Notes: generated by a model not told the origin, from the letters alone. A DNA stretch of 64,000 nucleotides from Balanoglossus misakiensis (GCA_040954595.2 CM082592.2:3674735-3738734); one strand, 5' to 3'. Shown: positions 10,216 through 58,111, counted from the stretch's first letter. Program-made: numbers and translations.

Positions 10216-10797
10216 ATGACAATGGGAGACACGTTATACAGTAATGTGCATAGTGCCTGGGAGAACGTTTCCACCTTGGATATAACCATGGTGTTAGAGC
10301 AAGCCCATCCACAGACAACATGTTGCATCAATTGCACTGGTCTTGGTGGGAAGGTCATATATTCCCCCGGCGGATGCACCTGTCTGATATCAAAGATGAA
10401 ACTCCCTAGTAAAGACCCCTCTTTTCAAGACAAACGGGTTTTTGAACATCCTACCATACATATGATAGTTCATTTGATGTCGTTTTTCTCAGAGAGTGTG
10501 GATTTCCAGGAGGACAAGTTCATTTTTAGGGAGATTGTACATGTTGGGCCCGACATAATTTCATTGATCATAGGTGCCCAGGACCTCAGAGGAGTATGTA
10601 ATATTAAAGAGAGAACGTTGACTGTAACCGTTATACAGAGTCCGTCTATACTACTAAAGATTGAACCGTTAAACAAAGACCAGGAGCTGTCTTCACTGGT
10701 AACTAAATTGGCGCACCACACCTTTATTAAGAAAGGGATGAATCGACAAAGGTTGGCAAAGAGAAGACGGGTGAAAAGGCTACGCAAGATAAACTAA
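10216..10797 (+). CDS. Hypothetical protein with basic C-terminal NLS-like tail
   Basis: 193-aa ORF with a CCxxC..C..H cluster, ending RLAKRRRVKRLRKIN. Confidence 0.6.
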   Translation: MTMGDTLYSNVHSAWENVSTLDITMVLEQAHPQTTCCINCTGLGGKVIYSPGGCTCLISKMKLPSKDPSFQDKRVFEHPTIHMIVHLMSFFSESVDFQEDKFIFREIVHVGPDIISLIIGAQDLRGVCNIKERTLTVTVIQSPSILLKIEPLNKDQELSSLVTKLAHHTFIKKGMNRQRLAKRRRVKRLRKIN

Positions 10798-10984
10798 CTC
10801 TATATACGTTTATATACTTACGACTAGCGACTATTTGGCTGACATATTCAAGCCGTAAAATTTGTACCAAGAAGTTGACGAATCGTTCCCGACGAAAAAA
10901 AAAGCACCGACCATACAGCGCACTTGAAAAGGTTACGCACTAATGAATGTGATTGTCCAAATATAAATCAAAGGCTATATAACA

Positions 10985-12883
10985 ATGGGTCGATATGGTT
11001 TGGCTCATATTGTAACCGATGTCAAAAGACACGCTTCTGAAATTAGGGACCCTGTGTACGGCGTGCTTGCAGCGGACGTCAACAGGTGGCGATTAACAAA
11101 ACTCCCTGTCCGATGGGAGCATGTACACGGGAGAGGAGAAGGTAGTGAGGACATTGGAAAGTCTTCTATACTATCGAGTAAGGGTATTGGTTACGTGAAA
11201 AACTGGTGGCTCGATTTTTCGTATCCAGGATCATATTTTGCAGTGGCCGTTTTATTGGAATTGGATGCCAAAGACTATATACAGAGTCCATTCTCTAGCG
11301 TGTTTAATAGCGTGTCATTGAGTCAAGATGCGAAGAATCGAGGGAAGTGCTTCGACATATCTCTAGTCAGAACTGGAGCAAGACATGGTACGCGTGCCTT
11401 GTTCTTTGATGACCTCAATCAAGTTCGTTTGGCAAGTCGCAAATATTTTGGTTTAGACTCAACTTTCACGGATGTCGTAAGTAAATACAAAGCGATCCGC
11501 GGGAGATATAACGCATACAGATCGAACGGTGGCTGCAGACTAAAGTATAAACGTGCAACATCCAACCAACATAATGTCAATATGGACGGTAGGGCGGACG
11601 GCAAAGCGTTGAATCATGAGGAACTGGAAATGACTAACCAGTTTACAAGTAAGCAAGATGCAGATCACGATACGCATGACACCCGAAAGGAAGGCGAAAC
11701 ACGACTGATACACATGTTAGGACAAAATAATGAAAAGGCCACTGTCCATGAGAGGACAGACTCGCCACGCACTCCTGCACCTAACACTGAAAATTCGCTG
11801 GCTAAGGAGTTGGCGTTAGTCAGCAAATTGGCACAGAATCTTCCCAAAGAGGACGCTGTACAGTTGATGGAACTGTTTGAGAATCGGGACGAGAAAATAA
11901 ATTCCATGGACAATATGGCGTTGACCATGTCGTTACAAGTTCAGAAAATCTTGCAACTAGTCAGTAACATAATGGACGAACAAAACACACCGGAATCCAG
12001 GAAACGCAGGGATGATCTTATGGAACTCCGTCAAAAACTCACCAGAGAGCCCATGGATCAAGGTCATATAAACGCCTCATTTTCGAAACTTGGTGAATCA
12101 TACCAAGACATATCGAAGGAAGCAAACAAGGTTCCCAGAGCATCTATGGACGAGGCAGTCAGTAATAAACTGATCGACTACTATAAACGTGTTACTAACG
12201 TGCTCAAGAAGCAATCAAACCCGGATACAATAAGTGAATCCAATATGTCCTCTTTGAGTAAAGATCAACAGGAACGCATGGCTAGAATTAAACAACATAT
12301 GTCAGAAAGCCCAGACATATACCAATACATACAGTCACTAGAGGCGGCAGTGGATAGTAGTCTACTCCAAGGTATACGTGAAAAATCCCCGCGACCACAC
12401 GGTAGTCTGTCGCGTCATGCTGCGCAACAAAATGCTACCTATAGAGACCGCGACGATGGGTATTCGCCACATTATCACACGCAAAAAATCACGGGACCTA
12501 GTCAGGAGCCCTACCAACGGCGTCAACCAACGCATGAGTGTATGTGTGAGGATTGTCAGCCCATACGTCACACCAAATCTCCCCACCTGCAGAACCGACG
12601 CCAAGGATCTCCGCAAGACCCCATAAAGACCCATCAATCTAAGCACAATTCTGAAGCTATGCAACAGCGCAAAGATGCGACCCAGTGTGATCGACAGCAA
12701 GACTGTACTGCAAAATCGTGTCGCCAACCGGACTCCGAGGATAAAATCGACGCCAGTTTCAGTGGTCATTCGGAGCACCAACAGACATTCTGGAAATTGA
12801 GGAAGCCAATAGTATACAATAATGATTTTCCGGAAGGATTTTGTGACGACGGACCACCAATAGTCAAGAGAATCAAACATTAG
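10985..12883 (+). CDS. Capsid maturation protease (assemblin/prohead protease-like) fused to scaffold
   Basis: LPVRWEH (cf. herpes LPLNINH), SVSLS (catalytic Ser motif) and FDISLVRTGARHGT (cf. HVALCSVGRRRGT). Helical/low-complexity C-terminal scaffold carries I-x-A/S sites. Lies next to the triplex and MCP genes. Confidence 0.8.
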   Translation: MGRYGLAHIVTDVKRHASEIRDPVYGVLAADVNRWRLTKLPVRWEHVHGRGEGSEDIGKSSILSSKGIGYVKNWWLDFSYPGSYFAVAVLLELDAKDYIQSPFSSVFNSVSLSQDAKNRGKCFDISLVRTGARHGTRALFFDDLNQVRLASRKYFGLDSTFTDVVSKYKAIRGRYNAYRSNGGCRLKYKRATSNQHNVNMDGRADGKALNHEELEMTNQFTSKQDADHDTHDTRKEGETRLIHMLGQNNEKATVHERTDSPRTPAPNTENSLAKELALVSKLAQNLPKEDAVQLMELFENRDEKINSMDNMALTMSLQVQKILQLVSNIMDEQNTPESRKRRDDLMELRQKLTREPMDQGHINASFSKLGESYQDISKEANKVPRASMDEAVSNKLIDYYKRVTNVLKKQSNPDTISESNMSSLSKDQQERMARIKQHMSESPDIYQYIQSLEAAVDSSLLQGIREKSPRPHGSLSRHAAQQNATYRDRDDGYSPHYHTQKITGPSQEPYQRRQPTHECMCEDCQPIRHTKSPHLQNRRQGSPQDPIKTHQSKHNSEAMQQRKDATQCDRQQDCTAKSCRQPDSEDKIDASFSGHSEHQQTFWKLRKPIVYNNDFPEGFCDDGPPIVKRIKH

Positions 12884-12917
12884 CGTGAGAGAATAATTTA
12901 CAACACAGGAAGAAAGA

Positions 12918-13838
12918 ATGTCCATCAGAAACGCGCAAGTAAAAGCCCCTCCAGTTGAAGGCCCAGTGATTGCGCTTGAAGTAGACCGCACGTTCGTTTC
13001 ACAAAACTTGGACGGTGCGAAGTTATCGGTCACTCAGGATGTGCTCTACCCGAGAGACGACAAGGTCACAATTGTACCGGGACAGGTACTGTTGGGACAC
13101 AGGGATTTTGCTTCTAGAAAGTGGGGAGTTGTTCCTTCACCAGCTGGGCTCATGGCAAAGTCATTTGATATACATACTGGAGATATCGAAAAAAGCAGGC
13201 AGATGTGGGAGTTAGACCCACAGGCGTATAAGGTACTGGGTATAGCTTCGACCGAATCCACCGATTGGGAAAAGGGTCAGCTAATGTCGATTGTGTCAAA
13301 GTCACCCAGTACGGGTTTTTTAAACACAGGAGGCAATTGGATAAGAGACGGACAACTTGTCTGTGTGCGTCTCCCAACCCACGAAGAAGCCAATCAACAC
13401 TTGCATCGGTATGGTTCGATCAAATTTGCCACCTATCCCCGCGACGATAACGACGTTCATTCAAATATATACGAGTTTATGGACTATCTAAGAATGGAAA
13501 AGGATATTGCTGTAGCAACAGGTCACCACAACAAAAGAGAATCGCTGAAAGCGCTCACCGAGATACTATCGCGTTCTGGGGAATTCATTTCGAGTCATAT
13601 AGTGCCAGAGCCAAGATCCCGAGCACAATTCGACAACTGGAAGCGTACGGGATATATTTTCAACACTCCATTAACCCTATTCACTGATGAAGCGCACAGG
13701 ATATCTTTGCAACATTTTCTCAACAATGTGGTCAAACTTGCCAACACAATTAGATCAAAGAACGACCTGATAATCTTAGGACTCGCCAGGCAAGATATAC
13801 ACCCTTACGAATACGGGAGCATAGAACTCTACGTTTAA
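12918..13838 (+). CDS. Putative capsid triplex subunit
   Basis: 306 aa, between protease and MCP. Beta-rich pattern IVPGQVL..VLGIA..FLNTGGNWIRDGQLVCVRLP..LGLARQDIHPYEYGSIEL resembles triplex/decoration proteins. Confidence 0.55.
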   Translation: MSIRNAQVKAPPVEGPVIALEVDRTFVSQNLDGAKLSVTQDVLYPRDDKVTIVPGQVLLGHRDFASRKWGVVPSPAGLMAKSFDIHTGDIEKSRQMWELDPQAYKVLGIASTESTDWEKGQLMSIVSKSPSTGFLNTGGNWIRDGQLVCVRLPTHEEANQHLHRYGSIKFATYPRDDNDVHSNIYEFMDYLRMEKDIAVATGHHNKRESLKALTEILSRSGEFISSHIVPEPRSRAQFDNWKRTGYIFNTPLTLFTDEAHRISLQHFLNNVVKLANTIRSKNDLIILGLARQDIHPYEYGSIELYV

Positions 13839-14510
13839 TATCTGTACGCGGAACACGTGTAATGGCATAAGACAATTTACCGTGGATTGTAATTTTTATC
13901 TTTATATATACATATTAAATAAATGTTACAAACAAAGTAATATAAGTAGTGAAACTTGCATGTCTACACACGAATAAATACACATAGACGATCATATGGG
14001 TTAAAATGAATTTATTTTTAACATGTTGTAAGAGAGTGTGCTGTATGTGATAAAAAATCACCTACACAGTTCTCATCTACATAACAATAAAACTCCTTCT
14101 GTGATTGGTTCACCGCCGACCAGTCTCAAGTCCAGTTGGGGTCGTTAAAATTGCGGCCTTTATGACTTCAATGACTAACGAATGAAGTCAATATGACCGC
14201 CGTTTCACCCCCCCCCCCCCTCATATGTTACGGGGGAAATCATTACAACTGTACCATGGAATCCTCCTGTACATTACTTGTACCTTTCACCATGGACTAT
14301 GCGTTGTGCTTCTTCATCATCTTCGTAGATGTACCGAATATAACAGTCCATGGTGTCAGACTTGTAGCCACGAATAATGATTACTATCCTTTAGATGGGA
14401 TTCAGCTATGCGTCTTCTCTGTTACAGCATGTTTCGCCAAAAGTGGTTCGTCAGAGATATTATATTAATAATGTGTTAGAATAGCGATACGTGTATAAAG
14501 GTATTTCAAA

Positions 14511-17500
14511 ATGCTGAATCCGTTCAGACGGGGTCAACCCAACATGAGCAGGCCTTTGATGACGTCTGATCTACTAAATTTTGACAATTTTTTTGCAGAC
14601 GACGGGTCAAACCCGCCCTCTGGTCAGGGTCGATTCGGGGGAACATTCTCATCCAATCCAAACTATATCGGACATCGAAACCAGGGTCACACTGCCACAG
14701 ACACCGATTGGGTTGCCCCGAAAGATGTCTTATTGAGTCAAAGGATATTATACGACTCGATCTCGCCTGATGAAGGCGTTGTTAAAGTGGGTGGTGATAG
14801 GTTGGCTTGGTTTTGTCCCATCGCTATTTTCAATGGAAGACCCAATTTTGCAATACAGGAAATCATCGCCCCGGCTTCAGTTGTAGATAAATGTACATCC
14901 GCGTCTACTCTGCCAACACTGGGCGTTGAAAAGCAGTCGAGACAGTATACCATGGATATGATGGGCGTTGCCATCAGTTTAGCTCCAGAGCTTATTCAAA
15001 GAGGGACTGTTAACCAGATAAGGAATGCGTACAAACTCAAGGTCAAACAGGTGGTCGACAGTATCGCAATGACACTACAGGCAGTAGTATACAGTAATGT
15101 ATTCGGTGGTCCCACACTCGAATACATGGAGTTTCGCAGGATGGGCAACGAAAGAGATGTTTCTAGAGCTAACCTATTTTATGGTACATATCAGAAAAGA
15201 ATCGACAATTTTCTACTATGGAACCTGGGGCGAACAAACAAGAAAGCTGTGTTAATTGACTTGGATAACTGTTTGAATTACAGTTCGAACAACGACGGTG
15301 ATGCCGACACAATAATATGTCACCCTGTCGTCGCAGGTGTCTTGAGGGAAACTGTCGCGCCTAATCTAGGCACGCAAGAAACTCGAGAAACCTATTTTGT
15401 GAATACGTCTGATAATCACATTGTGTATAATCACCATCTTCAACCAGACCCAAACCTCTCCCACCAAGTTCATGCTCCAAATTTAAGAACAATAGTTAAT
15501 GCAAAAGTTAAGTACATTATTCCCTGTCCGGATGTACGAATAAACAATGTCAAGTCGAATCTCAGTGAACTCGAGGCCAACTTCAAATCGTTTAACGTTA
15601 TAGGATATTGTCCATTACTGCAACAAATGGGTAGTCTACTGGACTTCAAACAAACCACATCTGTGGATTGGAATTCCATATACGTTACCGACTTTGAGAA
15701 ACGATACGATTCGAGGGTTACCTTGGACGAGGTGATGGAACAGGGTGGTTATTTTGTACCAGAAACATACAACGCGAGTTCTTATAACAATCTATTGAGA
15801 AGTGCAGACTTTATTGAATTGACGACCATAACACCAGCCGAGTATTATCGATCATGCACAATGCCTTTCACTGGAAAGGAGAAATCCTGCTTGTTAGATC
15901 CTAGTCGAAAAGTGTATTATGACCCGGACAGACAAACATTTCTACCCGCGTTCACTTATGGACACAGCAACGTGAGCACCTGTCCCGTCGACAGGGGTGA
16001 CATTGTCGCCGGTATGACGTTCATGTCCAGGACAATGGTTGGCCTCGGAGAGCATTGCGACGAGGAATTGTTATGCAACTATGTAAGAGACTGTCTGTCG
16101 CTGGAATGGTCTCAGGAGGATTTCGACACCCTTATGCTGTTTGATCGCACACCGTTTCACGAGGCAATGGGCGATGTGGCAGAAGTTGGCAACACCAGTG
16201 ATGGGAATGGAAGTGGAGAAGGTTCAGGTAGCCAGGGGACATTGGCCCAAAGGGTTATCAGGGACGTCACTTCTCATAGTGGCGCCACACATTTTACCAA
16301 TTACGATCAATTGCTAATCGTCCGTCATATTTGTCAGCAACGCAGATGCATCGATCGAGAAAGAGAGGAAGGTGGTCGTGCAGGTGCTACCGCTATGAAC
16401 GCATTAGACTGCGCAATTGTCAACATTACTATGATTATAGAATGGGTAGACTTACTCTATGACAAATATAAAACAGTAACCAAATCCAGGCCAGATACTA
16501 CACACAGTTGGTTGTTCACGCCATTGGGTCATGAGACTCTACAAAAAGTATTTCACGATGACCGCCTAGATGAAGCGGATGAGAGAGATTACACGCATAT
16601 GTTACGCAACAAGGCTGCTCTGTACCACAATGTATTTCTGAGAGCATTTTCGCCGGTTGTATATGTTGCGGGAAATTCTTCTTTAGACGAAGCTATAGAG
16701 GCCGGCATCGTGAACGTTGTGGGGCTGGGTGACATTACACTGAACGAGGAGGTTTATCATTACAATTGTAACTTTAGTACATATTCAGCCAGGCGGACAT
16801 TCAATACTATAGCTGATTCGTCATTCATACGCCCCAAGCAAAGATTTGTTATCTCCGATTTGAGTCCATTGCACTCATACAACAATGACTCTCCTGTCGA
16901 TGCGGAACACTTTCTGAACCATAACTATTCCTACAGGTTGTCATGGATCTGCAGTTCGTCATACAGTCTCATGATCAAGTGTTTTACCATGATTTTCATT
17001 AGCATGTTACAAAACCCAACCACTACTAGAGCGTTAGCAAAAGAAGGGATATATTTAAACACGGCGTTTCTTTTGTTCAGAAATGTGGTACAGCGGACAT
17101 GTAGCATCGCCATGGCGCGATCTGGTAGAGAGAACAGGTTCTTGTTTTGTGGCAATAGCACTACAAATAGTTACCATAGTAATGCCACCAGTTATGTGAC
17201 GAATTGTCGTTTCGAGACAAATATGGTGGACTTCGACCCGATCAATAACACCAGGGTACAGTTGCACGTGGGAGGTCTGGGTTATAACAGGGGGATGGGT
17301 TCAAAAATTAGGGACCCGTTCACGGAGGGGACGTCCGATGGTAGGGGCGACTTTGTTGTTGTACCTATGTGTCCGATCGTAGATGTTGGGCTCTGGAATC
17401 ACATTCAACCTATGAACGGGCGAGTTACGTTCGAAGATGGTAATTCAAACAAAAAGGCCACGAGAATAGACACTGTCCAAGGTATTTACACCAATAATCC

Positions 17501-17978
17501 GTGGTCAACGGCTGGACTGTCAGAGGCTCAGATTATACATGGTAACATGCGACATCCCTTATGGGTTCACAATAGTAACAAGCACGGGACGTTCAAGTGT
17601 TTCTTACAGGCCAAGACACCGTCACCACAATACCAAGTTGGTATTGATGAATTTTATAGGCCCATAGATTCCAATGGTCTACAGAGAGAATCAAACATAG
17701 CTGTACAGGGTAGGCAGTACCACAACAACATTGACTGTCCATACGCTTTCAAGACTCTTAACAGAGGGTTTTATGGAATGGACGAAAATAGTAGCAATCG
17801 CTTCCAAGACGCCCTCAACGTCTCCACCGTTCGTGATGACGAAGGTTTACATCTGATGGATCCAATCACGATTCAACCGTCTGTCAAGAGAACGGACAAG
17901 TACTACGCAGAGACTGGAATCCGTAAGAAATTCAAGCCAGACGACGCGTCGCGTCAACACAGACTAATACCTATTTAG
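14511..17978 (+). CDS. Major capsid protein, HK97 fold with large insertion (herpesvirus/mirusvirus type)
   Basis: 1155 aa. The N-terminal segment WFCPIA..QEIIAPASVV..TLPTL..QSRQYTMDMMGVAISLAPELI..YKLKVKQVVDSIAMTLQAVVYSNV fits an E-loop plus spine-helix pattern. Adjacent to the protease and triplex genes. TATAAA at ~14495. Confidence 0.75.
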   Translation: MLNPFRRGQPNMSRPLMTSDLLNFDNFFADDGSNPPSGQGRFGGTFSSNPNYIGHRNQGHTATDTDWVAPKDVLLSQRILYDSISPDEGVVKVGGDRLAWFCPIAIFNGRPNFAIQEIIAPASVVDKCTSASTLPTLGVEKQSRQYTMDMMGVAISLAPELIQRGTVNQIRNAYKLKVKQVVDSIAMTLQAVVYSNVFGGPTLEYMEFRRMGNERDVSRANLFYGTYQKRIDNFLLWNLGRTNKKAVLIDLDNCLNYSSNNDGDADTIICHPVVAGVLRETVAPNLGTQETRETYFVNTSDNHIVYNHHLQPDPNLSHQVHAPNLRTIVNAKVKYIIPCPDVRINNVKSNLSELEANFKSFNVIGYCPLLQQMGSLLDFKQTTSVDWNSIYVTDFEKRYDSRVTLDEVMEQGGYFVPETYNASSYNNLLRSADFIELTTITPAEYYRSCTMPFTGKEKSCLLDPSRKVYYDPDRQTFLPAFTYGHSNVSTCPVDRGDIVAGMTFMSRTMVGLGEHCDEELLCNYVRDCLSLEWSQEDFDTLMLFDRTPFHEAMGDVAEVGNTSDGNGSGEGSGSQGTLAQRVIRDVTSHSGATHFTNYDQLLIVRHICQQRRCIDREREEGGRAGATAMNALDCAIVNITMIIEWVDLLYDKYKTVTKSRPDTTHSWLFTPLGHETLQKVFHDDRLDEADERDYTHMLRNKAALYHNVFLRAFSPVVYVAGNSSLDEAIEAGIVNVVGLGDITLNEEVYHYNCNFSTYSARRTFNTIADSSFIRPKQRFVISDLSPLHSYNNDSPVDAEHFLNHNYSYRLSWICSSSYSLMIKCFTMIFISMLQNPTTTRALAKEGIYLNTAFLLFRNVVQRTCSIAMARSGRENRFLFCGNSTTNSYHSNATSYVTNCRFETNMVDFDPINNTRVQLHVGGLGYNRGMGSKIRDPFTEGTSDGRGDFVVVPMCPIVDVGLWNHIQPMNGRVTFEDGNSNKKATRIDTVQGIYTNNPWSTAGLSEAQIIHGNMRHPLWVHNSNKHGTFKCFLQAKTPSPQYQVGIDEFYRPIDSNGLQRESNIAVQGRQYHNNIDCPYAFKTLNRGFYGMDENSSNRFQDALNVSTVRDDEGLHLMDPITIQPSVKRTDKYYAETGIRKKFKPDDASRQHRLIPI

Positions 17979-18267
17979 ATCGAAGGGATAACTGTCAAAT
18001 CAGTTTCGTTTAATCCCACCCGCATAGATAGATAAAAGTTTTGTTAAGGCCAGAGAGAAAAAAAAATCTTGTTCATCGGATTTTTTGGATGATGGTCCAG
18101 GAGCGGCGAGCGAATATTTTTTTTTTTTTTTTTTTTAGGCTCGTGCTCTTTCATTTTGTTACCTGTATGTGTAGGTCTACCTGTGCTGTACTATATGTAA
18201 TGTATGACTTATACGGCCGAAATAAAAAGTTGAACCACCAGAAGTGACAACCACAATTTTTTCCGAG

Positions 18268-19649
18268 CATGGTGTATTATTTGCTGACCTTATATTGGCA
18301 AGCTTCACAAATGGTGACCCCGACGTGATGAATTCTCAAGGCATGAGTGTATTGTATTTACAATCGTGACGTTACTGGTTACCGACTCACCCTCTCCAGA
18401 CAAGTGACGCACACGATCACGGCCAGTATGTATGGCAGGAAATCACACGCATTAATTCCCGAATAAAATTTGGGATAACGATTATTTAAAACGGAATGCT
18501 TGTTTTGAGAAAGCTGCCCGTCTCGCGCATAAAAGTTCAACATATTTGAAATATCTTAAATAAAAGTGAATAAGCTTTCAATATATATATAATGACAACA
18601 AAATGGTTTAACACGTAACAAAAATATAAATTCTGTACAAAAATTCATGAATTCTTGTCAATGAATCTCAGATATAATAAATAATGTCTATACAGCGTGG
18701 TTTTGATTGTCTTTTCCATGTAACGTAAATACCACAACGTAGTTCTTCTCCAGTCGATGGGAAAATATAGTCTCTTGCCATGGACGAGCGAAATTTAATC
18801 TATCAGGGAAATATATCTGCTCACAAATGCGCGCCATATTGGGTGGCAAATCGCGTCGTCGTCATCAAAAGTGGAAATCAACACTAGAACGTGAACATCG
18901 CTTTTGATGTCCGTTTCTCGAGTCACAGTTTCAAGTCTGAATACTCCAACACGACATATTAAAGCTCTGTCTCTTCCACCTCCAGTTTTGATTGTATAAA
19001 CATCGTCGCGTCCGATGGCGCGATCATTTGGTGCAGCGTTCGGTCGGGTGCGAAATTTTCACTTCAAGACGGTGTGATTTTTTTCCTCATACTAATTCTG
19101 TGTAACTACGAGTCTTGGCTGTCATTATGAATACGATTTCAGTTCGGCAAAAACTTCTGAAAAATACGTACTCTCCTTGTTTATCCGTAACATGTTGGCA
19201 CTACAGTCATTTATAATTTTCAGGCTTCTGTCCCCGAATCTGTCTCTGTCGTCTTCAACTAGGAACGGTTTTAGCGGATAACTGATCTCGTTGCCCACGT
19301 AACTATAGGATAAGTACAGACATGTGAGCACGACGGCTTGTAGCTCAGACTCGGAGGTGATTTTGTCGTCGACCAAGTCCCGACATAACATGTACACGAA
19401 GACAAGGTTTGCCGGGGTGATGAAGGCAATGTCCTGCCACCCTTGCAAGAGCAGGGACCTGTCCACTGATCGCAGCCACATTATGGCATCGTTGCCTTCG
19501 AAGTCCCGCAAGCAGGAGCATCGCCGACTGAGGAAATTTCCCAGACACTTCAGCAGTTCTCCGGTGGACGCTTGGATGGTTTTCTTGGTGTTCGGCGTTT
19601 TCACCGCCATGGTGTATTATTTGCTGACCCTATATTGGCAAGCTTCACA
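18268..19649. repeat. 42-bp direct repeat pair (18268-18309 and 19608-19649) bracketing the cargo
   Basis: catggtgtattatttgctgacc(t/c)tatattggcaagcttcaca, one mismatch. Confidence 0.95.
19125..19610 (-). CDS. CDK5R1: CDK5 activator (p35/p39 family), activation domain only (p25-like)
   Basis: [74 protein letters not shown] closely matches the animal p35 C-terminal domain. Confidence 0.95.
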
Positions 19650-20028
19650 CGATGAACAATTTATTTTTCTTCCTGGCCTAATTGTCTCTGTACTGTCCGT
19701 GTTGCCAGCCAATCCACTCATTTATTCCGCTGCTTTGATATAATTACATGCCTATGCAAATAGGGAAAGATATACAAATCTACATGCCTTTTTTTATACA
19801 CCACATAATACGTAAGTGCATGTATTCCAACTGTAATACATTGGATAGACCGTGTGCGTGCGTGTCACTATCCTGCGTGTAAAATTGGCGAGTATAATTT
19901 TTAGAGACAACTCGGCTTTTGTGGCTCATAATTCTAATTATATCAAAGTACAACGCCAACAGTCCTATACATCTGGCGTTGACATAACCTATTAGCGTGT
20001 GCAGAGAACAGTATTGTTTAGTTGAACC

Positions 20029-20394
20029 ATGAGAATTTTACTCGCTACTTTTATGGGGGTTCTCTTTATATCATTTATTATCGGTCTTACAAACTTCGTC
20101 AAATCTTTACCGTCACATCATAATCCAAAGTCCCCGATAGCGCCACCCTTTTATTTACGGTGGTGTAAAGATTCCCTCTATACTACGCTGTCAGAGACGA
20201 CCGAATGGGTACCCGATCAATTAACGAATCTGATGTACAACTCCACCTACACCCCAATGCCATTGAGGAAAGTGAGCAAAGAAACAGTAGGTTGGATGGC
20301 ACAGAGGCTTTTAAACATCAAGTCTGCTATTACGCCCAACGCTCCAAAAGCCTTAGTAGGATACACGATAGATATTTCTATACAGGGTCCTTAG
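20029..20394 (+). CDS. Small protein with N-terminal signal/TM segment
   Basis: Hydrophobic N-terminus MRILLATFMGVLFISFIIGL. Overlaps the next ORF, so the gene model is uncertain. Confidence 0.45.
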   Translation: MRILLATFMGVLFISFIIGLTNFVKSLPSHHNPKSPIAPPFYLRWCKDSLYTTLSETTEWVPDQLTNLMYNSTYTPMPLRKVSKETVGWMAQRLLNIKSAITPNAPKALVGYTIDISIQGP

Positions 20395-20906
20395 TAGTTG
20401 TGTTCGGACTAATGCTCGCTTCGCTGACCAACACTCTGTATCTCAACCATCTACATTCCAAGATAGCAGACGAACAATGCGAGTTGCCATTCGGGGATGT
20501 CATTGATATCAACGAATATGGATACACTGTACACACATTCAATGGTCGTTTGTTGTTAAACAGAAAAAGTAGCGGGTCACAATTACCAGCAGGCCCTTGT
20601 ACACACTTCAATTCGACTGTACAAGAAGCTGTCCAATGTGAATCTGAGATAATGTTATACGATATAAAAGGCGAACCATACTATGCTTTGCGCATGTTCA
20701 GAGATCAATCAAACCACACATTTTTAGTACAAGGGCCTTATAGTGGCAACGGCGACGAACACCAAGTCCACATCCGTACCGACCTTCAGTCTGGTAATGT
20801 CGTCGTTGGATATGGTCCAGTGCCGCCAAACAAAGTACCAGATGCAGAACTGTATGTAGACGGATTTATTTATGCTGCTACCTTGGATAGAAGTAGTTTC
20901 AATTAG
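20205..20906 (+). CDS. Putative type II membrane protein
   Basis: TM segment SLVVVFGLMLASL followed by a beta-rich ectodomain with N-glycosylation sequons. Start uncertain. Confidence 0.5.
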   Translation: MGTRSINESDVQLHLHPNAIEESEQRNSRLDGTEAFKHQVCYYAQRSKSLSRIHDRYFYTGSLVVVFGLMLASLTNTLYLNHLHSKIADEQCELPFGDVIDINEYGYTVHTFNGRLLLNRKSSGSQLPAGPCTHFNSTVQEAVQCESEIMLYDIKGEPYYALRMFRDQSNHTFLVQGPYSGNGDEHQVHIRTDLQSGNVVVGYGPVPPNKVPDAELYVDGFIYAATLDRSSFN

Positions 20907-20999
20907 AACGAGACTGGGACACTGTTATCGAACATAACGGCGCCCCTATTTAATCCCACCTGTCAAACTAAGTATACCAGAACGAACGACATACTTGGC

Positions 21000-21578
21000 A
21001 TGACAGAACAAACGTCAATGTCGTCTCAATTAGACCCCGAAATGTGTATTTGTCGCATATGCCAAGAAGGTGAATCGTGTGCTGAAGGCGGCATGCTCTT
21101 GATTGCACCTTGTTTATGCAAAGGTAGTCTGAAGTTTGTCCACCGTAGGTGCATCCAAACCTGGATAAGAAGCGCTCGTATCAACCGATGTGAAATTTGT
21201 AATGCACGCTTCAAAATCATGGTTGAGACTAGACCAATATCAGAATGGACATTGCCGAAGATGACCAGAACGATATGGATAAATATTGCACTTGTGTTGT
21301 CGTGTACTGTGTGTATATTAGGCATATCATTACACATGCACCTTTTGGTGGAATCCCTATTTCTAAAGATGGATGCACTGAATACATTTTTCGTGGTGGC
21401 TTGCGTGTTGCTGGCACTTATGGCGCTGACTGCATTTGTCCTCCTAGAGACTTTTAGGTGCGTGGACGTGTATGTGTGGTTAAGAGAGAACAACAGAGAG
21501 ATAGGTGTTAAGGACTATTGCCCATCTTCTCAACAAATACATGGTGGTGATGAAGACATACGCACGAATACGGTGTAG
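21000..21578 (+). CDS. MARCH/K3-like RING-CH membrane E3 ubiquitin ligase
   Basis: C4HC3 RING-CH CRIC..PCLCKGSLKFVHRRCIQTWI..CEIC followed by two TM helices. Confidence 0.92.
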   Translation: MTEQTSMSSQLDPEMCICRICQEGESCAEGGMLLIAPCLCKGSLKFVHRRCIQTWIRSARINRCEICNARFKIMVETRPISEWTLPKMTRTIWINIALVLSCTVCILGISLHMHLLVESLFLKMDALNTFFVVACVLLALMALTAFVLLETFRCVDVYVWLRENNREIGVKDYCPSSQQIHGGDEDIRTNTV

Positions 21579-21808
21579 ACACCATGTAATTGTTCCATAC
21601 TCTATTTTTGTTTTGTTCATTACGATGACGACATTGTTGTCCAATCAGTATCCTCCCTTCTCACCCCCCATGATGAGTACGGCGATTTTGACAATGAACG
21701 AGTCACATCGTTCGTCCATGTAATGAGCCGTTGGTGACATTCACCATATATAAGCAAGAGCGATTTCAGTCACTCTCGCCAATCACAGTTTGCCTATATC
21801 AAACAACA

Positions 21809-23077
21809 ATGTCCGAACTTATCGACGTGGTTTATGGAGTTGACGGGAAAAACATCGGAGAGGTATTCCACATTCCGTACTTCTGGTTACCCAAGTTTAT
21901 ACCGGCATGGGATCGTTTGCTAGAACGAACAGGAGGTGGTCAAGAGGATGGCGATCGCCGGCGCCTCATTCTGAGATACCCCTTTCCAGACAAGGTGACG
22001 TCGAAAGATGTGGATGAAATTGTCAAGTTTGTCAGCGATTGTGTACATAACTATTCAACATTTTGTCGACCATCCGATGTTCCTTGGTCGAGGTTGACAG
22101 CTGTGCTCAGGCTGGTGGACCATTACAAGGTCACTCCATACCTCGACGCTTTGGTATCTTTTATACATAAAACCTCCATGAATGCGTACACATCCCAAAC
22201 CACCCTACACATGTTAGAAGCCTATCATGACCTTGTGCATGACTTGACGGAAGATGTACTACCTGCAGCAATCGTCAGAGTGGAGATCGCCACTCAATGC
22301 GTGTTAAATGCCAATTCGTGGAATTACATTTGTTCATGTCAAAAATGTCCCGAACACCCGCGACGCGACGAAGTCGCTTTGTTATTTTGTGGACACGAGA
22401 AACAGATTCACGCCTACTGGGAAAAGATGATGTCGTGCACTCTGACAAAGAATCTACGAAAGAGTAAATGGACCCTTGCCACTTTCGCGTGTATGGTCTC
22501 TGATGGTTGCCATGGAATAGCTACGCAATTACCGCAAAGTCCATCTTATTCTACTAATTTTCGTCTGCTCTTGCATTTGTGGTTGGCGAAAGGAGGTGAA
22601 GATGTACTTGCTGAACACGTTGCCCTTCTATCGTGCCTGTGTAGACAGGATGATCTTATGAGGCGTGCAGTCATTTTACAGGGCATGTTCAAGTACTCCG
22701 GAATGACCCAGATTGCCATCAGAGATTCTCTGAAACCTATAACATCACGGAGACGTACCATACAACAGGTATGGGCGAGCGCCGCCGATGAAACATGCTA
22801 TAATTGTTTGAATACACCGCAAGCGTCAAAATGGATTCATTGGAAAACATTTCCACGCGTGGCGTGTGATGTATGCGCAGAAGAGATGTGCCGGAAATGT
22901 TACGGTACGTGCGCATTGTGTGAACGAACTTTGTGTTTCGGATGCGCTACGTTTCTTACCAATGATAGAAGAATTGAATGGCTGATGACTAATGTGAGTA
23001 GGCGAGCAATACACGGTCATGGAGTATGTGTAGATTGTAGAGGCTTTCCGGGGAAGTTGGTACCCAACAAAAACTAA
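21809..23077 (+). CDS. BTB-like protein with C-terminal Siva-like Cys-rich domain (paralog A)
   Basis: BTB-like LRLVDHYKVTPYLDALVSFI. C-terminal six CxxC pairs. Colinear with 36757..38105. First ATG (MSELIDVV) used as start. Confidence 0.65.
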   Translation: MSELIDVVYGVDGKNIGEVFHIPYFWLPKFIPAWDRLLERTGGGQEDGDRRRLILRYPFPDKVTSKDVDEIVKFVSDCVHNYSTFCRPSDVPWSRLTAVLRLVDHYKVTPYLDALVSFIHKTSMNAYTSQTTLHMLEAYHDLVHDLTEDVLPAAIVRVEIATQCVLNANSWNYICSCQKCPEHPRRDEVALLFCGHEKQIHAYWEKMMSCTLTKNLRKSKWTLATFACMVSDGCHGIATQLPQSPSYSTNFRLLLHLWLAKGGEDVLAEHVALLSCLCRQDDLMRRAVILQGMFKYSGMTQIAIRDSLKPITSRRRTIQQVWASAADETCYNCLNTPQASKWIHWKTFPRVACDVCAEEMCRKCYGTCALCERTLCFGCATFLTNDRRIEWLMTNVSRRAIHGHGVCVDCRGFPGKLVPNKN

Positions 23078-23526
23078 CAAGACTGTCAGGAATTGTACAT
23101 GGCACGCAGTAAATGAAATATTCGCGATAGAAAGAACAATAGCAATAAGAAGAAGAATTACAACAAAGTGTCGTGTCCCTAAAATAACGGAACTGTTCAA
23201 CATTGATGAAGATATGAGGTCGTTACCGCAACTTAAAGATGGCAGAACTATAACAATTGCCATAATAGTTCTTTTTTTTTATTTCTTGGGTGTGTCATAA
23301 CATAGGTTCTACAAAATATACGGACTCTCCTTTCAATACATGCATCGTCCAATCAGGTAAATAAACAAACAACCCATAAATGTATGGATGTCTGCGATAC
23401 TGTGTACATAATTTAACATAAATAAATAAATACATATCCGTATAAATGCCCACTTGTCTGTGTCCATCTTCGTATTTATATTGCAATTTTATCACGGGTC
23501 AGAGCCTTATAACGTTAAACCTGGTC

Positions 23527-26500
23527 ATGAATGTAGGAAGGCGGCGTGTTTACCTGTTAAAACTAGAAGTCAAAGGGAGAGGAGTCAACGCATCCGACCT
23601 CTGTACCATCTTCGGCAAACTTCCCAATGGGCGTAGTATCGCGTTGGACATACTCGACCCAGTATATAGGATTTATTTGAATCCCATCAACGAGGTTAGG
23701 GACGAGGAAGAAGTGTGCGCCCTCATTCATCAGTATACCAGCACGTTTTCCAATAACTTCAGCGTTGGTAAAACGTCAAAGGTAATCGGCAATGGTTACG
23801 CGGGGGATTCTCGACTGCCATTTTGGTACGTCGAGTCGTCGGAAAATGCGGTTGTTAAACAGGTGCAAAAAAATCTACCACGCTCCATTTTCAATTTTTT
23901 TATGGACGGCTGTGGAAAGGCCTATTTGGACGTAGCGGCCAATATGAACATCGGGGGTGTTGGTTGGCACTGGATTAAGTCGTCAAGATACGTAACGGGA
24001 TGCAAATGCCATTCGTGGTATGGCAAAGAACATGATCATGCCACTGTGAGTGATACCCACTCCATTGAGCCCCAACGAGAAGGCGAAAGTAGTCCACCAC
24101 CACCCATTAACATTCTTCAACTGAAAGTTCATTGCTATCCAGACGGTGTAATCGCATTTATTACCTGTTCGTTGTTACGATGGGCAAAAGATTTGACTTG
24201 TCTGTTTAATAATACATTCCGTAATTGTACCGTTGTGAAGTTTAGAACCACGATGTATGGTGGTGATATCTCAAATGTAGTAAATTGCAGGGATGAAGGT
24301 AATGTGTTACGCGCATTCACCAAAATCATCACTACCTGTGACTATGACTTTTTATGTGGATATTTTTTGGAAAAGGAACAGTTAAGAGTGTTAAAGGAGA
24401 GAAGTTGTCTTCACGGGCTCAACTTGATAAACCCTTTATTAATCAGGGATATTCGCCACACGCCTTTCGTCAACAGGTGGGATAATGACCCACGCGGTAT
24501 TGGCTTGATCGACATATGTACTGACAAACACGCGGATGGTCCGGACGCCTACAAATACATCAAAGACACTGTATTTAACAAAGGCTTCCTGAACACATAC
24601 TTATCAACTTGCGAAGCGGCTACTATATTCTGTAGCCGACTAACTCACAAGAAGTCAAATGTAGATATTATACAGGTACCATACATGGATTTTTTTGAGT
24701 CAGCTATGACTCGTAAGGCTAAACAACTTGGGTACGTCTTTGCATGCAGGGAAATCGGAGGAAGCAATGCGACGACGAGTCATTCTGAATATGAGATTGA
24801 AGCAGATCGAGGTCAAGGTTGTCAAGGCGGTTTGTTTCTCACGCCGGTTCAAGGGTTACACGTGGGCAATGCAGAATTGAGAGATTTTAAAAGCATGTAC
24901 GGTTCCATAATAGTTGCATTTAACATCGACATCACCACTAGTTTGCAAGAATCACGCGCGGGTTTATTAAATGATGTAATTGAGATACCAGGTGGCTACA
25001 ACTTTGTTAGCCCAAATGTTCGGCAGGGGTTACTACCGTCTATAGTTTCAAATCTTGTCGCGCAACGGGAACACTTCCAGAAAATTGCCCAGAGCAACAA
25101 CGAAAACGGGAGTTGGTACGAAATGCAACAAATGGCACGGAAACAATTGATTGTGGGAGCTTACGGAGTCAATTTACGTCAGAGTATATTCACAAGCCCG
25201 TGTGTGGCTAAGGCCATTACATCCACTGGTAGATTCCTCTTTGAACGGATGAGAGTAACAGCCGCGTCATTCACCCACCCACATTTATTGACGACACCCA
25301 GTGTCCTATTTGGAAATGCAGATTCTCTGATGACCAGTTTCCTGCCAGCACGTGAATTGTCTAACGTCGAATGGACCGAAGTTTTCATGGATATTGGACA
25401 GTGTTTCCACGACGACATTCGTAAAGTAGTTCAAACCATGGGCGCGAATATAGATGCGCGTTTATTGCGGTTTGAGTCGAAAGGGCATGCAAAAATAGTA
25501 ATGTGTACGAGTCGCAAACAACAGTATGTGATGTGCATTAGGTCAACTTCCAAAAAAGGATGTTGTTTAGTTGTCAAAGGGTTTGTATCGAACTCTACAA
25601 ACTGCCATCCCTTGGTGAGAAACGTGGAAAGATGTATGCTGTCACTCCTGTTTGAAGGTCATGTATTGCTTAGGTCTGTAGAATCTGGGCAACTGTCAAC
25701 ACTTCACCCAAGTGAATTGTCCACACGCTCGCAACTGATATATGAAGCGTACGTAGCATCATCTGGGGTGTGGGTGAAGGTTGGAGATGCTATAAACCAA
25801 GATACTGGTGTTAAGAACTCCTTTCGTTTGCGAGATAATTTAGGCAGAGAATTGTGCGAACGCCTTTTTGACGAGGACGGCATTCCGATACTCACCACTG
25901 ACAGACTCAGAGAAATAAGGTCTGAAGTGGAGACGGTTGTGTTGTACACGTTAAACAGAGTCATAATGTTGCAAGAAGACACGCACCTGTTGATAAAACA
26001 TTTGCCACCGAATGCTAACCCTGGTGCAAGGTCGACGTTGGAAAAACAATACATGCAATTTCACGGGAGATTGCCTTGTGATATATTATATGTGAATACC
26101 AAAGAAGATGGACCAATGCACCCTCTTTTGGCTGTCTTCCAACAGAAAACACTAGAGACAGATGACACAATTGCATCGATAAAAAAGACCTTTATTGAGG
26201 GGGGTGACGAAGGTGGTCCGTATTCCATTATGAATGTTATGAGGCCCAACGTCAAGACATTACACGGAGTATTGTGCATGGAAACAGAATCAACTGTGCA
26301 AAATCAGTTAAGAGTACAAAGACAGTTTCGGAAACGATTCGATTCTGTCCTCGCTATGTCCTCTAAGAAAGTCGAACAACCCGTGTGCAATAATGAAGAG
26401 GAATATGTGATGACAAAATTGTTGAATTTTACCAACTGTCCGGATTGTAAAGTTATCACTGTAGATCGAGCTAATCGCGACTACAACTACACCGACATGT

Positions 26501-26730
26501 TCGGAACTGATGCGATAATCCGGAAGCATAATTTGGTTTTATTCAATGTATGCAAACAAAGTTCGCGTGTGTATTTCATATCCAATTGTAAGGATGTCCA
26601 GTGTGTAGGCGTATACAAATTTGCCACCTTGGTGAATCAATTGAAAATACTAACTGCACTTAAAAACAAGGAAGCAATGGTAAACAAAGTGTCAACTGTT
26701 TTGACTGAACGTCTCACGAAATCACAATGA
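23527..26730 (+). CDS. polB: Family B DNA polymerase with degenerate motifs
   Basis: Motif A RDFKSMYGSII, motif B KQLIVGAYG, motif C FGNADSL, QGLLPSIV and LVVKG. Exonuclease acidic residues are absent. C-terminal Cys cluster present. Confidence 0.88.
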   Translation: MNVGRRRVYLLKLEVKGRGVNASDLCTIFGKLPNGRSIALDILDPVYRIYLNPINEVRDEEEVCALIHQYTSTFSNNFSVGKTSKVIGNGYAGDSRLPFWYVESSENAVVKQVQKNLPRSIFNFFMDGCGKAYLDVAANMNIGGVGWHWIKSSRYVTGCKCHSWYGKEHDHATVSDTHSIEPQREGESSPPPPINILQLKVHCYPDGVIAFITCSLLRWAKDLTCLFNNTFRNCTVVKFRTTMYGGDISNVVNCRDEGNVLRAFTKIITTCDYDFLCGYFLEKEQLRVLKERSCLHGLNLINPLLIRDIRHTPFVNRWDNDPRGIGLIDICTDKHADGPDAYKYIKDTVFNKGFLNTYLSTCEAATIFCSRLTHKKSNVDIIQVPYMDFFESAMTRKAKQLGYVFACREIGGSNATTSHSEYEIEADRGQGCQGGLFLTPVQGLHVGNAELRDFKSMYGSIIVAFNIDITTSLQESRAGLLNDVIEIPGGYNFVSPNVRQGLLPSIVSNLVAQREHFQKIAQSNNENGSWYEMQQMARKQLIVGAYGVNLRQSIFTSPCVAKAITSTGRFLFERMRVTAASFTHPHLLTTPSVLFGNADSLMTSFLPARELSNVEWTEVFMDIGQCFHDDIRKVVQTMGANIDARLLRFESKGHAKIVMCTSRKQQYVMCIRSTSKKGCCLVVKGFVSNSTNCHPLVRNVERCMLSLLFEGHVLLRSVESGQLSTLHPSELSTRSQLIYEAYVASSGVWVKVGDAINQDTGVKNSFRLRDNLGRELCERLFDEDGIPILTTDRLREIRSEVETVVLYTLNRVIMLQEDTHLLIKHLPPNANPGARSTLEKQYMQFHGRLPCDILYVNTKEDGPMHPLLAVFQQKTLETDDTIASIKKTFIEGGDEGGPYSIMNVMRPNVKTLHGVLCMETESTVQNQLRVQRQFRKRFDSVLAMSSKKVEQPVCNNEEEYVMTKLLNFTNCPDCKVITVDRANRDYNYTDMFGTDAIIRKHNLVLFNVCKQSSRVYFISNCKDVQCVGVYKFATLVNQLKILTALKNKEAMVNKVSTVLTERLTKSQ

Positions 26731-38670: not shown

Positions 38671-38677
38671 TCTATAG

Positions 38678-39930: not shown

Positions 39931-40734
39931 GGCTGCATTCACAAACACCTCTGGAGGGGGGGGGGCGGGAGAATTCAATTTTTTTTACCGCTAATTTTCA
40001 CATGCCCCCCTTCCGAACTGCCAATATTTTCAACCCCCCCCCCCTTCCGAACTGCCAAAGTTTTGAAATCCCCCCATTGTCTTTCACAGAGCAAAACACA
40101 TCACCTATCTATCTTGTAAAAAGAAAAACAGCGCTCCCATGAAAAGAATTTGAAACTGATGTTTCCCCTCATCAGTGGGTATTAAAACTGAACATTTTTT
40201 TTATTTGTTAAGTACATATATTTGTATTCTGTGTTGGGAGAATTTGTAAACCGAGAATTGAAGGGGGTGGGTTTGGGAGGGGGTGTCCCCCTCCCACGTA
40301 AGAAAATTTTCTAAAATACAGAGCTCAAAGCTGCATTTTAAGGAACCCGGCAAAAGCAAATTAACTCAACTACCGGTTTGTTGGGGAGGACAAATTTAAC
40401 CGTCGCCGAGCAAAGTTATCATGGGGTGGGGGCAAGTCCCCTGACCTGGGTCACTAGATAAACCAGTCAATGATTGAAAGGTGTTGATGAATTGAGGGGG
40501 TGGGTGTGGCAGGAGGTTTCCCCCTCCCACATTAGAAAATTTTGTAAAATAAAGGGCGCGAAACTGCATTTTTGTGGACTCAAAATAAATATTTAGTCGT
40601 CAAAGTTTTCAAGTCCCCCCCCCCCTTTCAGTCCCTAAATTATTTCAAACCCCCCCCTCACATACCCTCAATTTTTTCAAACCCCCCCCTTAATTCTCCT
40701 GCCCCCCCCTCCAGAGGTGTTTGTGAATGCAGTC
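39931..40734. mobile_element. Tourist-like MITE (PIF/Harbinger superfamily), 804 bp
   Basis: TIRs G(G/A)CTGCATTCACAAACACCTCTGGAGGGGGGG..GGAGAATT at both ends. TTA flanks at 39928-39930 and 40735-40737. Non-coding interior with G/C homopolymers. Confidence 0.9.
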
Positions 40735-44212: not shown

Positions 44213-44355
44213 TTCGTGTAATAATTGTGCAATGCACCAACTTGTTTAATATGTATCTTTATGTTTGTTGCACTCGGATGTAAAAAAAAGTCCACTCATT
44301 ACACTTCTTACATACTGCATTCTAACGCGCACACTGCGTGTGTTTATGGTCACGT

Positions 44356-44610: not shown

Positions 44611-44696
44611 ATATTGAAATCCGTCTAATTCAACGCACATCGTAACGATATCAGTTCGTATCAAGACGAATAATTGTTCTTTAGTTCCTGTCTCTT

Positions 44697-58082: not shown

Positions 58083-58111
58083 TAATATTAAGCAGTGTAT
58101 TTACGCCAACT

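What the first reader, a model, noticed from the sequence alone, without database searches (positions are those of the whole stretch)
18045..19681. Transposon-delivered, transposon-initiated p25-like CDK5 activator inside a herpes-like viral genome
Seen: a 1631-bp element with imperfect ~30-bp TIRs and TAA flanks. Its structure is TIR-L / R / 1.3-kb cargo / R / TIR-R, where R is a 42-bp direct repeat. Removing the cargo and one R leaves a ~290-bp MITE. The cargo is an intact p35-family activation domain plus ~800 nt of 3'UTR-like DNA. Its ATG is the terminal CAT of R, so the transposon supplies the start codon. Known: TAA/TTA duplications mark PIF/Harbinger elements. The p35 N-terminal p10 part carries the myristoylation site and degradation signals, and its loss gives stable, mislocalised, hyperactivating p25. 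Inference: gap-fill capture by a host MITE created a minimal constitutive CDK5 activator that then jumped into the virus. It would be a functional analogue of gammaherpesvirus v-cyclins and a snapshot of how such viruses acquire host genes.
Basis: partly seen in the sequence, partly recalled or inferred. Interest (0 to 1): 0.92.

Follow-up and report, generated by a model that had tools for sequence, protein, structure and literature searches.

The report
Transposon-carried host gene in herpes-like virus
A small transposon-like element inside a herpes-like virus genome carries a clipped copy of a host (likely acorn worm) CDK5-activator gene and supplies its start codon, likely catching a virus in the act of acquiring a host gene, though the copy has lost a nearly invariant residue and is probably a decaying passenger rather than a working viral tool.

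Summary
Window 18048-19678 (1631 bp) has TAA flanks, 31/29-nt imperfect TIRs and two 42-nt repeats (41/42) around a 1.3-kb cargo. The cargo encodes a 161-aa CDK5-activator domain, 155/160 identical to Ptychodera flava p35 residues 142-301. A host-type contig runs on past both cargo ends, so the ATG (context ACC-ATG-G) comes from the repeat. TIRs and interior lie at far higher depth than the flanks, as a host family would. The upstream gene folds like a herpesvirus major capsid protein. The window's cargo allele has the depth of the viral flanks, which argues against misassembly. The functional claim is weak. Three amino-acid changes lie on the viral side, about the neutral expectation. One replaces a Trp kept in 239 of 240 homologs, in the helix whose human counterpart contacts CDK5. 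A second TTA-flanked element without cargo sits in the same window, so persistence needs no benefit. Not shown: expression, the 291-bp empty MITE, an empty viral site, or whether capture preceded the jump. Verdict: a Pack-TIR-like element in an animal virus, likely a passenger; about 20% chance it is a working activator.

The parts
18045..18047 (.). left TAA flank (likely target-site duplication)
   Evidence: other copies in runs X1/X3 are preceded by TAA or TTA (loose ends)
18048..18078 (+). left terminal inverted repeat, 31 nt
   Evidence: summed contig depth 3549 in bin 18059-18117 against 135-152 on viral flanks in X1
18079..18267 (.). non-coding MITE interior with a long T run
   Evidence: near-identical multi-copy contigs, e.g. 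X2 record 18146-18260, depth 1059, 1 difference; diverged copies at depth 43-64; no Rfam match in 17900-20100
18268..18309 (+). left copy of the 42-nt repeat R
   Evidence: also in host-type contigs, one of which continues after R plus 2 letters into other sequence
18310..18321 (.). 12-nt junction filler, in neither R nor the host p35 locus; resembles a shortened piece of R
   Evidence: host-type record starts matching at 18322; templated origin is my inference
18322..19124 (-). host DNA downstream of the p35 stop codon (3'UTR-like), cut short, no poly(A); one AATAAA at 18799
   Evidence: continuous with the coding part in host-type record X3-19, 16 listed substitutions in 803 nt plus gaps
19125..19610 (-). 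161-aa ORF: transposon-derived ATG plus host p35 residues 142-301 (CDK5 activation domain, no N-terminal p10 part)
   Evidence: all-helical model, mean pLDDT 71
19608..19649 (+). right copy of R; read on the minus strand it ends in ACC-ATG, with an in-frame stop two codons upstream
19650..19678 (-). right terminal inverted repeat, 29 nt
   Evidence: summed depth 4930 (X1) and 40381 (X2) at 19663, mostly a variant one T longer
19679..19681 (.). right TAA flank (likely target-site duplication)
14511..17978 (+). context: 1155-aa gene predicted to be a herpesvirus-type major capsid protein; its stop lies 66 nt before the insertion
   Evidence: Foldseek on a low-confidence model (pLDDT 44): best viral match Lake sturgeon herpesvirus MCP E 2.5e-13, the 8 matches at E<=0.001 that carry a name are all herpesvirus proteins; PDB rows listed are all herpesvirus capsids
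39931..40734 (.). context: second TIR element, 804 bp, TTA on both sides, no ORF of 100 aa, intergenic
   Evidence: host copy number not tested

Best explanation
A non-autonomous, likely PIF/Harbinger-type host transposon carries a 1.3-kb piece of the host's (likely an acorn worm's) p35 gene, supplies an in-frame start codon for it, and sits between genes of a herpes-like virus, where the copy is probably a hitchhiking passenger that has begun to decay. Shown: the anatomy, the host origin of the cargo, the ATG from R, the high depth of TIRs and interior, the viral allele at viral depth. Inferred: the cargo was copied in by template switching or gap-filling at R (both cargo ends lie inside the host locus, no poly(A), 12-nt filler); a transposase in trans then moved the loaded element to a TAA site 66 nt behind the capsid gene; the insertion persisted because it broke no gene; the ORF has since changed at about the neutral rate, and the loss of the near-invariant Trp likely weakens folding or CDK5 binding.
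For: Host-type record continues past both cargo ends. TIR and interior depth far above viral flanks, with TAA/TTA before other copies. X1 contigs run from each viral flank 29 letters into the element at depth 152 and 135; viral-type cargo allele 142, host-type allele 60. 8 listed coding differences from the host-type allele, 4 nonsynonymous and 4 synonymous; coding 1.7% against downstream 2.0%, Fisher p 0.83. By three acorn-worm outgroup proteins 3 of the 4 amino-acid changes are on the viral side. Neutral expectation from the downstream DNA is 3.2-7.3, omega 0.4-0.9. Position 126: 239 W, 1 F, 0 G among 240 homologs; position 105: 228 M, 9 L, 2 V, 1 I. The three host proteins depart at 0 of 51 columns conserved at 97% or more. 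Position 126 lies in helix 122-145, 4 and 7 residues before the equivalents of human L262 and I265, named as CDK5 C-helix contacts in PMC11031989. A second TTA-flanked element with no cargo persists in the window. Harbinger elements were the most frequent host insertions counted in two of three baculovirus population sets, at TAA/TTA (PMC4735498). The nearest upstream ATG starts a 34-codon ORF that ends 6 nt before the p35 ATG.
Against: The frame is fully open, with no stop or indel in 161 codons, while the host-type record differs by 44 gap letters over the cargo as a whole. The unpolarised pN/pS is 0.31; it does not differ significantly from 1 (p 0.10), but purifying selection is not excluded. 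The break removes p10, keeps the whole solved domain, lands in frame on the only ATG of R and gives A at -3 and G at +4: a fortunate combination for pure chance. Window and X1/X2 contigs differ at 5 non-coding sites of the element and at 0 of 486 ORF letters (expected 1.2, p 0.29). The enrichment of viral-side changes in conserved columns (2 of 3, against 2 of 16 among hosts) is not significant (p 0.10); 50 of 240 homologs also depart at one or more highly conserved columns. In baculoviruses most host insertions are purged fast, so fixation is unusual. All runs are one sample of one study and may be the window's source.
Confidence: 0.6

Rival explanations
1. Working viral gene: the element is transcribed from viral intergenic DNA to its right, makes a stable, non-myristoylated p25-like protein and switches on host CDK5 to the virus's benefit; it would be a CDK5 counterpart of viral cyclins.
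For: Open frame, whole activation domain, good start context, a TATAAA about 190 nt upstream and an AATAAA about 330 nt downstream on the right strand; ORF is head-to-head with the next viral gene and a 14-nt motif stands in both orientations in that gap. Loss of p10 lengthens half-life and removes membrane anchoring (PMC8607427). A CDK5-inhibiting peptide reduces HSV-1 replication (PMC6362106, title and passages).
Against: Trp to Gly at a 239/240 column and Met to Val at a 228/240 column; viral-side amino-acid changes near the neutral count; upstream ORF ending 6 nt before the ATG; no p35 in 2 of 2 related viral loci examined, which are distant and partial, nor in IMG/VR.
Confidence: 0.2
2. 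Attenuated modulator or decoy: the protein is made, binds CDK5 poorly or non-productively and dampens or redirects it, like the inhibitory p35 fragment CIP.
For: p35 fragments can inhibit: CIP, residues 154-279; the legend of Fig. 1 in PMC6362106 also lists p21 and p16 as inhibitors, which conflicts with my recollection that such fragments activate in vitro. All 3 viral-side changes fall in residues 105-126, next to or in the contact helix.
Against: Three changes are too few to show clustering or selection; loss of a large conserved side chain more often destabilises than retunes (general knowledge). No expression evidence.
Confidence: 0.08
3. Different order of events (compatible with any of the functional readings): an empty MITE entered the virus first and the p35 piece was copied into it there by break repair, so the transposon supplied the ATG but did not deliver the gene.
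For: The viral-type allele has only the depth of the viral flanks in X1 (142 against 135-152), leaving no room for a loaded host copy in this sample. Most single-copy Pack-TIRs arose by gap-filling after transposition (PMC8277862). Host DNA enters baculovirus genomes by recombination as well.
Against: A loaded host copy may have been in another individual or lost; gap-filling favours nearby templates, which is easier in host chromatin. No viral variant with an empty MITE is listed (0 joints in 3 runs; contigs drop rare forms).
Confidence: 0.3
4. Assembly chimera of host and viral DNA.
For: No listed contig spans the whole element; flank contigs reach 29 letters into it, just short of the tool's 31-letter bridging rule. 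The runs may be the window's own source.
Against: A distinct viral-type allele at viral depth beside a host-type allele (6 differences in 124 nt, X1); exact TAA on both sides; cargo flanked by R and filler absent from the host locus; both flank contigs enter the TIRs rather than joining each other.
Confidence: 0.03

Closest known systems
Pack-TIRs of animals, e.g. Ssk-FB4 (PMC8277862, passages read); Pack-MULEs of plants
   Same: Host sequence between the ends of one TIR element; template switching with filler at a junction (45-bp insertion in Ssk-FB4, 12 nt here); chimeric gene structure
   Different: Lies in a viral genome; cargo 1.3 kb against a median of 224 bp; TAA-type ends (the word Harbinger does not occur in that paper's main text); the element supplies the start codon; cargo bounded by a 42-nt direct repeat
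Host DNA transposons in baculoviruses and other large dsDNA viruses (PMC4735498, PMC8383894; passages read)
   Same: Harbinger-type insertion at TAA/TTA in a nuclear DNA virus
   Different: Those are mostly rare and purged and the passages seen mention no gene cargo; this one is the predominant form in the sample, carries a host gene piece, and has diverged about 2% from the host-type allele
p25, the calpain product of p35/CDK5R1 (PDB 1h4l, 1ung, 7vdp)
   Same: Whole activation domain, no myristoylated p10 part
   Different: Made by gene truncation, about 35 residues shorter at the front than human p25 (limits recalled), and altered at two highly conserved positions
Gammaherpesvirus v-cyclins (recalled, not tested)
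   Same: Captured host CDK activator in a herpes-type genome, freed of host control regions
   Different: v-cyclins are old, diverged, selected D-type cyclins with shown function; this is a very recent p35-family capture with no shown expression or activity
Teratorn-like integrated alloherpesviruses (PMC10175614, passages read)
   Same: Herpes-type genome joined with a host DNA transposon; best capsid fold matches are alloherpesviruses
   Different: Teratorn uses an autonomous piggyBac to move the whole virus; here small non-autonomous elements sit inside the virus, and integration is not shown

Membership tests
PIF/Harbinger MITE (Tourist-like) | 3-bp TAA/TTA target-site duplication | tested here: met
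   TAA both sides; TAA/TTA before other copies; an empty site at nucleotide level was not available
PIF/Harbinger MITE (Tourist-like) | Short TIRs, non-coding interior | tested here: met
   31/29-nt TIRs starting GGCC; G-rich start typical of the superfamily is recalled
PIF/Harbinger MITE (Tourist-like) | Many dispersed copies in the host | tested here: met
   Summed depth and many different flanks at both TIRs and the interior; depth is not a copy count
PIF/Harbinger MITE (Tourist-like) | Autonomous partner with Harbinger transposase and Myb-like gene sharing the TIRs | not testable with these tools
   No host genome held
Pack-TIR | Non-TE host sequence between both ends of one TIR element, with the parental copy elsewhere | tested here: met
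   Host-type p35 locus lacks R and TIRs at both cargo ends
Pack-TIR | Both arms match one consensus element (unloaded form exists) | tested here: inconclusive
   Arms are multi-copy, but 0 joints R-to-right-TIR listed in 3 runs, and one host-type contig continues after R into other sequence
Pack-TIR | Transposed after capture (further loaded copies with other flanks) | tested here: inconclusive
   No extra depth for a loaded host copy in X1; one sample only
LINE-made retrocopy | 3' poly(A) tail at the transcript end and short TSD | tested here: not met
   No T run at 18310-18321; host-type record goes on 715 letters past the cargo end
CDK5 activator (p35/p39, PF03261) | Activation-domain sequence above the Pfam cut-off | tested here: met
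   293.6 bits against cut-off 25; covers all 146-148 residues matched in 1h4l_D and 3o0g_D
CDK5 activator (p35/p39, PF03261) | Conserved residues intact | tested here: not met
   1 departure among 51 columns at 97% or more (W, 239/240) and one at a 95% column
CDK5 activator (p35/p39, PF03261) | Binds and activates CDK5 | not testable with these tools
Herpesvirales | Large HK97-type major capsid protein with herpes-type tower | tested here: met
   Foldseek E 2.5e-13 to an alloherpesvirus MCP, TM only 0.29, model pLDDT 44; language-model features also point to HK97-type capsids, a weak lead
Herpesvirales | Family B DNA polymerase | tested here: met
   23446-26730, PF00136 E 3e-20; only 1 relative at E<=1e-20, unnamed
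Herpesvirales | Terminase ATPase phylogeny placing it in a named family | not tested
   No terminase recognised among 37 ORFs scanned with Pfam; mirusvirus-like placement not formally excluded

The most novel reading that the evidence does not exclude
A host MITE built a new gene in one step (removed the control region of p35, added a start codon in good context), carried it into a previously undescribed herpes-like virus of acorn worms, and the virus now expresses it as the first virally encoded CDK5 activator or modulator. Pack-type transposons would then be a direct route of host-gene capture by large DNA viruses.
Probability: 0.22. Interest if true: 0.88.

Novelty: new variant of a known kind. 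Interest (0 to 1): 0.63.

Why it matters
Herpesviruses and other large DNA viruses hold many host-derived genes, but the captures are usually too old to show how they happened. Here donor locus, vehicle, both junctions, target-site duplication and the borrowed start codon are all still readable at about 2% divergence. Even as a passenger it shows that a non-autonomous DNA transposon can bring a ready-to-translate, control-stripped host gene into an animal virus, a route not seen in the searches made. It also points to an unnamed herpes-like lineage associated with a hemichordate (no such paper surfaced). If expressed and active, it would be a natural viral tool for CDK5, a kinase tied to HSV-1 replication.

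Tried and rejected
No whole genome held, so TIR and MITE searches in a host assembly were impossible. No RNA holder listed: no evidence on expression either way. Run X3 holds the host-type p35 contig but has no cover on the viral flanks in 14000-24000; its small size and transcript-like 2725-nt contig suggest an RNA library, but it is not on record as one, so this is not counted. Run X2 is uneven (zero cover at 19298-19415, 1375 at 19468-19607, a loose end starting GATC), so its depths were not used for ratios. Empty viral site: IMG/VR gave no relative of the capsid protein or of the p35 ORF. The metagenome scan gave 2 loci (L005 51%, L006 38% capsid identity); both keep the upstream gene block, start the next ORF within 40 nt of the capsid stop or overlapping it, and show no p35 or TIR match, but downstream gene order differs, so they are no nucleotide-level empty site; their full records could not be searched. 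A 19-nt piece of R hit 4 IMG/VR contigs (L001-L004) that do not extend beyond 19-23 nt: chance. Among the 120 listed of 270 short homologs, none exceeds 74% identity or is labelled viral. Rfam: 0 matches. The left arm folds no better than shuffles (z 0.76). The sigma-70 scan does not apply to a eukaryotic virus. The lower pLDDT at residues 101-130 had no control and is not counted. No complex was modelled. Paper searches for the Trp's role found nothing (passages). Earlier scan findings: none. Poly(A)-primed retrocopy rejected (no tail, host record continues). No supplements were read.

Full report
OBSERVATION. TAA stands at 18045-18047 and 19679-19681; between them lie 1631 bp with imperfect TIRs of 31 and 29 nt. 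A 42-nt direct repeat R occurs at 18268-18309 and 19608-19649, 41 of 42 alike; removing the cargo and one R leaves 291 bp. The minus-strand ORF 19610-19125 gives 161 aa that match Pfam CDK5_activator at E 3e-87 and cover the whole domain solved in CDK5-p25 structures. Its closest relative among the 120 listed of 1202 longer homologs is Ptychodera flava p35, 155 of 160 residues identical, host residues 142-301; Glandiceps and Saccoglossus follow at 92% and 86%, and all other animals at 75% or less. The donor is therefore likely an acorn worm.

THE GENOME AROUND IT. The window is gene-dense (about 81% coding without the two elements) with a family B polymerase, ribonucleotide reductase small chain, deoxynucleoside kinase and RING proteins; 26 of 37 ORFs have no Pfam match at E<=0.01. 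The 1155-aa ORF that ends 66 nt before the insertion has 14 unnamed relatives. Its low-confidence model (pLDDT 44) matches herpesvirus major capsid proteins, best an alloherpesvirus at E 2.5e-13. 'Herpes-like' is supported; family placement is open. Two related loci (51% and 38% capsid identity) keep the upstream gene block and have no p35 next to the capsid gene.

SEQUENCING RUNS. Three runs of one sample hold the stretch; they may be the window's source and are contigs only. In X1 one contig runs from the left viral flank 29 letters into the left TIR at depth 152, another from the right TIR into the right flank at depth 135, and the cargo splits into a window-type allele (depth 142, 0 differences) and a host-type allele (depth 60, 6 differences in 124 nt). 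No contig joins the two flanks. The insertion is thus the predominant viral form in this sample and a chimera is unlikely, although no contig meets the tool's 31-letter bridging rule. TIRs reach summed depths in the thousands with many different flanks, preceded by TAA or TTA in the left-end flanks shown; the interior has near-identical and diverged copies. That is what a dispersed host family looks like. In X3 a 2725-nt host-type contig matches 18322-19607 and continues on both sides; past 19607 it reads into the p35 linker. So the cargo is cut at both ends, has no poly(A), and its ATG is the end of R, with A at -3 and G at +4. Twelve letters (18310-18321) belong to neither parent. The 291-bp empty form is not shown: no joint is listed, and one host-type contig goes on after R and two further letters into other sequence, so R could be a native repeat at both ends of a longer element whose middle was replaced.

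IS THE PROTEIN KEPT BY SELECTION? Of 26 differing letters in the host-type record, 24 are listed: 16 in 803 nt downstream of the stop and 8 in 483 coding nt, the same rate (p 0.83); 4 coding changes are synonymous and 4 are not, pN/pS 0.31, not significantly below 1 (p 0.10). Two letters are unlisted and position 8 is unresolved. The three acorn-worm proteins place 3 of the 4 amino-acid changes (105, 122, 126) on the viral side and one (131) on the host side. Neutrality predicts 3.2 to 7.3, depending on how the downstream differences are split (omega 0.4-0.9). Position 126 is Trp in 239 of 240 homologs and Gly in none; position 105 is Met in 228 and Val in 2. The three host proteins depart at none of the 51 most conserved columns, as do 190 of 240 homologs. 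With an offset of 132 (p25 start recalled) these are human W258 and M237; 126 sits in helix 122-145 of the model, one and two turns before the equivalents of L262 and I265, which PMC11031989 names as contacts of the CDK5 C-helix (one passage). That the change weakens binding or folding is inference; no paper on this residue was found. On the other side, the frame is intact, the window and the X1/X2 contigs differ at 5 non-coding sites of the element but at none in the ORF (p 0.29), and the in-frame, well-placed ATG is a lucky outcome. The numbers are too small to exclude mild purifying selection. Translation would also have to pass or skip a 34-codon upstream ORF that ends 6 nt before the ATG.

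PERSISTENCE NEEDS NO BENEFIT. A second element, 804 bp with about 35-nt TIRs and TTA flanks and no ORF, sits in another intergenic gap at 39931-40734. Both insertions avoid genes (chance about 0.04), and window-versus-run differences in 14000-24000 fall 7 substitutions in 2766 non-coding nt against 1 synonymous in 6749 viral coding nt. The viral genes look maintained while TAA/TTA-type elements collect between them. Viral-type depth is about 2.4 times the host-type allele in X1, which fits either a replicating virus or several integrated copies; I cannot tell which.

MECHANISM. Shown: anatomy, donor, source of the ATG, host family, viral context. Inferred: template switching or gap-filling at R copied in 1.3 kb of the p35 locus, as described for animal Pack-TIRs (PMC8277862, passages); a transposase in trans moved the loaded element into the virus, as Harbinger elements do into baculoviruses (PMC4735498, passages); the insertion drifted or hitchhiked; the ORF is decaying. 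I give 0.6 to this, 0.2 to a working activator, 0.08 to a decoy, 0.03 to an artefact. Independently, there is about a 0.3 chance that the cargo was captured only after an empty element had entered the virus.

COMPARISON AND NOVELTY. It works like a Pack-TIR and meets the core definition (host DNA between the ends of one TIR element, parent elsewhere); the unloaded form and the autonomous partner are untested. It is a p35-family sequence but fails the test of intact conserved residues, so it should not be filed as an active p25. Searches for Pack-TIR with virus (2 papers), for host-to-virus transposition (11 papers; passages of two read), for a viral CDK5 activator (1 irrelevant paper) and for hemichordate herpesviruses (20 of 63 and 12 of 22 listings seen) showed no such case; the library lacks most subscription journals. 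Papers seen as passages only: PMC8277862, PMC4735498, PMC8383894, PMC11031989, 10.1101/2025.09.10.675329, PMC13269228, PMC6362106, PMC8607427, PMC10175614; the rest as listings. v-cyclins, p25 limits and Harbinger TIR style are recalled.

VERDICT. Real, well preserved and unusual: a Pack-TIR-like element with a transposon-supplied start codon inside an undescribed herpes-like animal virus. New variant of a known kind; interest 0.63, and 0.88 if the protein proves expressed and active.

Noticed in passing
window 39931-40734: Second TIR element (804 bp, TTA flanks, about 35-nt TIRs, internal 85-nt repeat), intergenic and without ORF; likely another host MITE
   Followed up: partly
window 19733-19746 and 19935-19948: Perfect 14-nt inverted pair in the viral gap right of the element, no TSD, viral depth only; possibly a two-way promoter motif, one copy facing the captured ORF
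   Followed up: partly
window 14511-17978, 10216-13838; L005, L006: Herpes-type capsid gene and conserved upstream block shared with two unnamed metagenome loci: an undescribed herpes-like lineage, here associated with a likely hemichordate
   Followed up: partly
window 1015-1911 and 2126-3043: Tandem pair of RING-finger genes with near-identical 5' parts, preceded by 124-130-nt repeats (439-946)
   Followed up: no
window 38678-39697 (-): Ribonucleotide reductase small chain (Pfam E 2e-97), probably an older host-derived capture
   Followed up: no
window 21000-21578: RING-variant protein with predicted membrane segments (MARCH-like, label recalled), as in viral immune-modulating ligases
   Followed up: no
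window 27238-33978 (-): 2246-aa coiled-coil protein with internal repeats; its C-terminal 270 aa match a much shorter ORF in L005
   Followed up: no
window 38246-38700, 44307-44621, 45242-45439, 58081-58340: Intergenic tandem repeat blocks; intergenic gaps are far longer than in the relative L005
   Followed up: no
window 14055, 14179, 16193, 18176, 18700, 18754, 18851, 19061, 19788: The window differs from the X1/X2 contigs at these places, nearly all non-coding: likely two viral variants that share the insertion
   Followed up: partly
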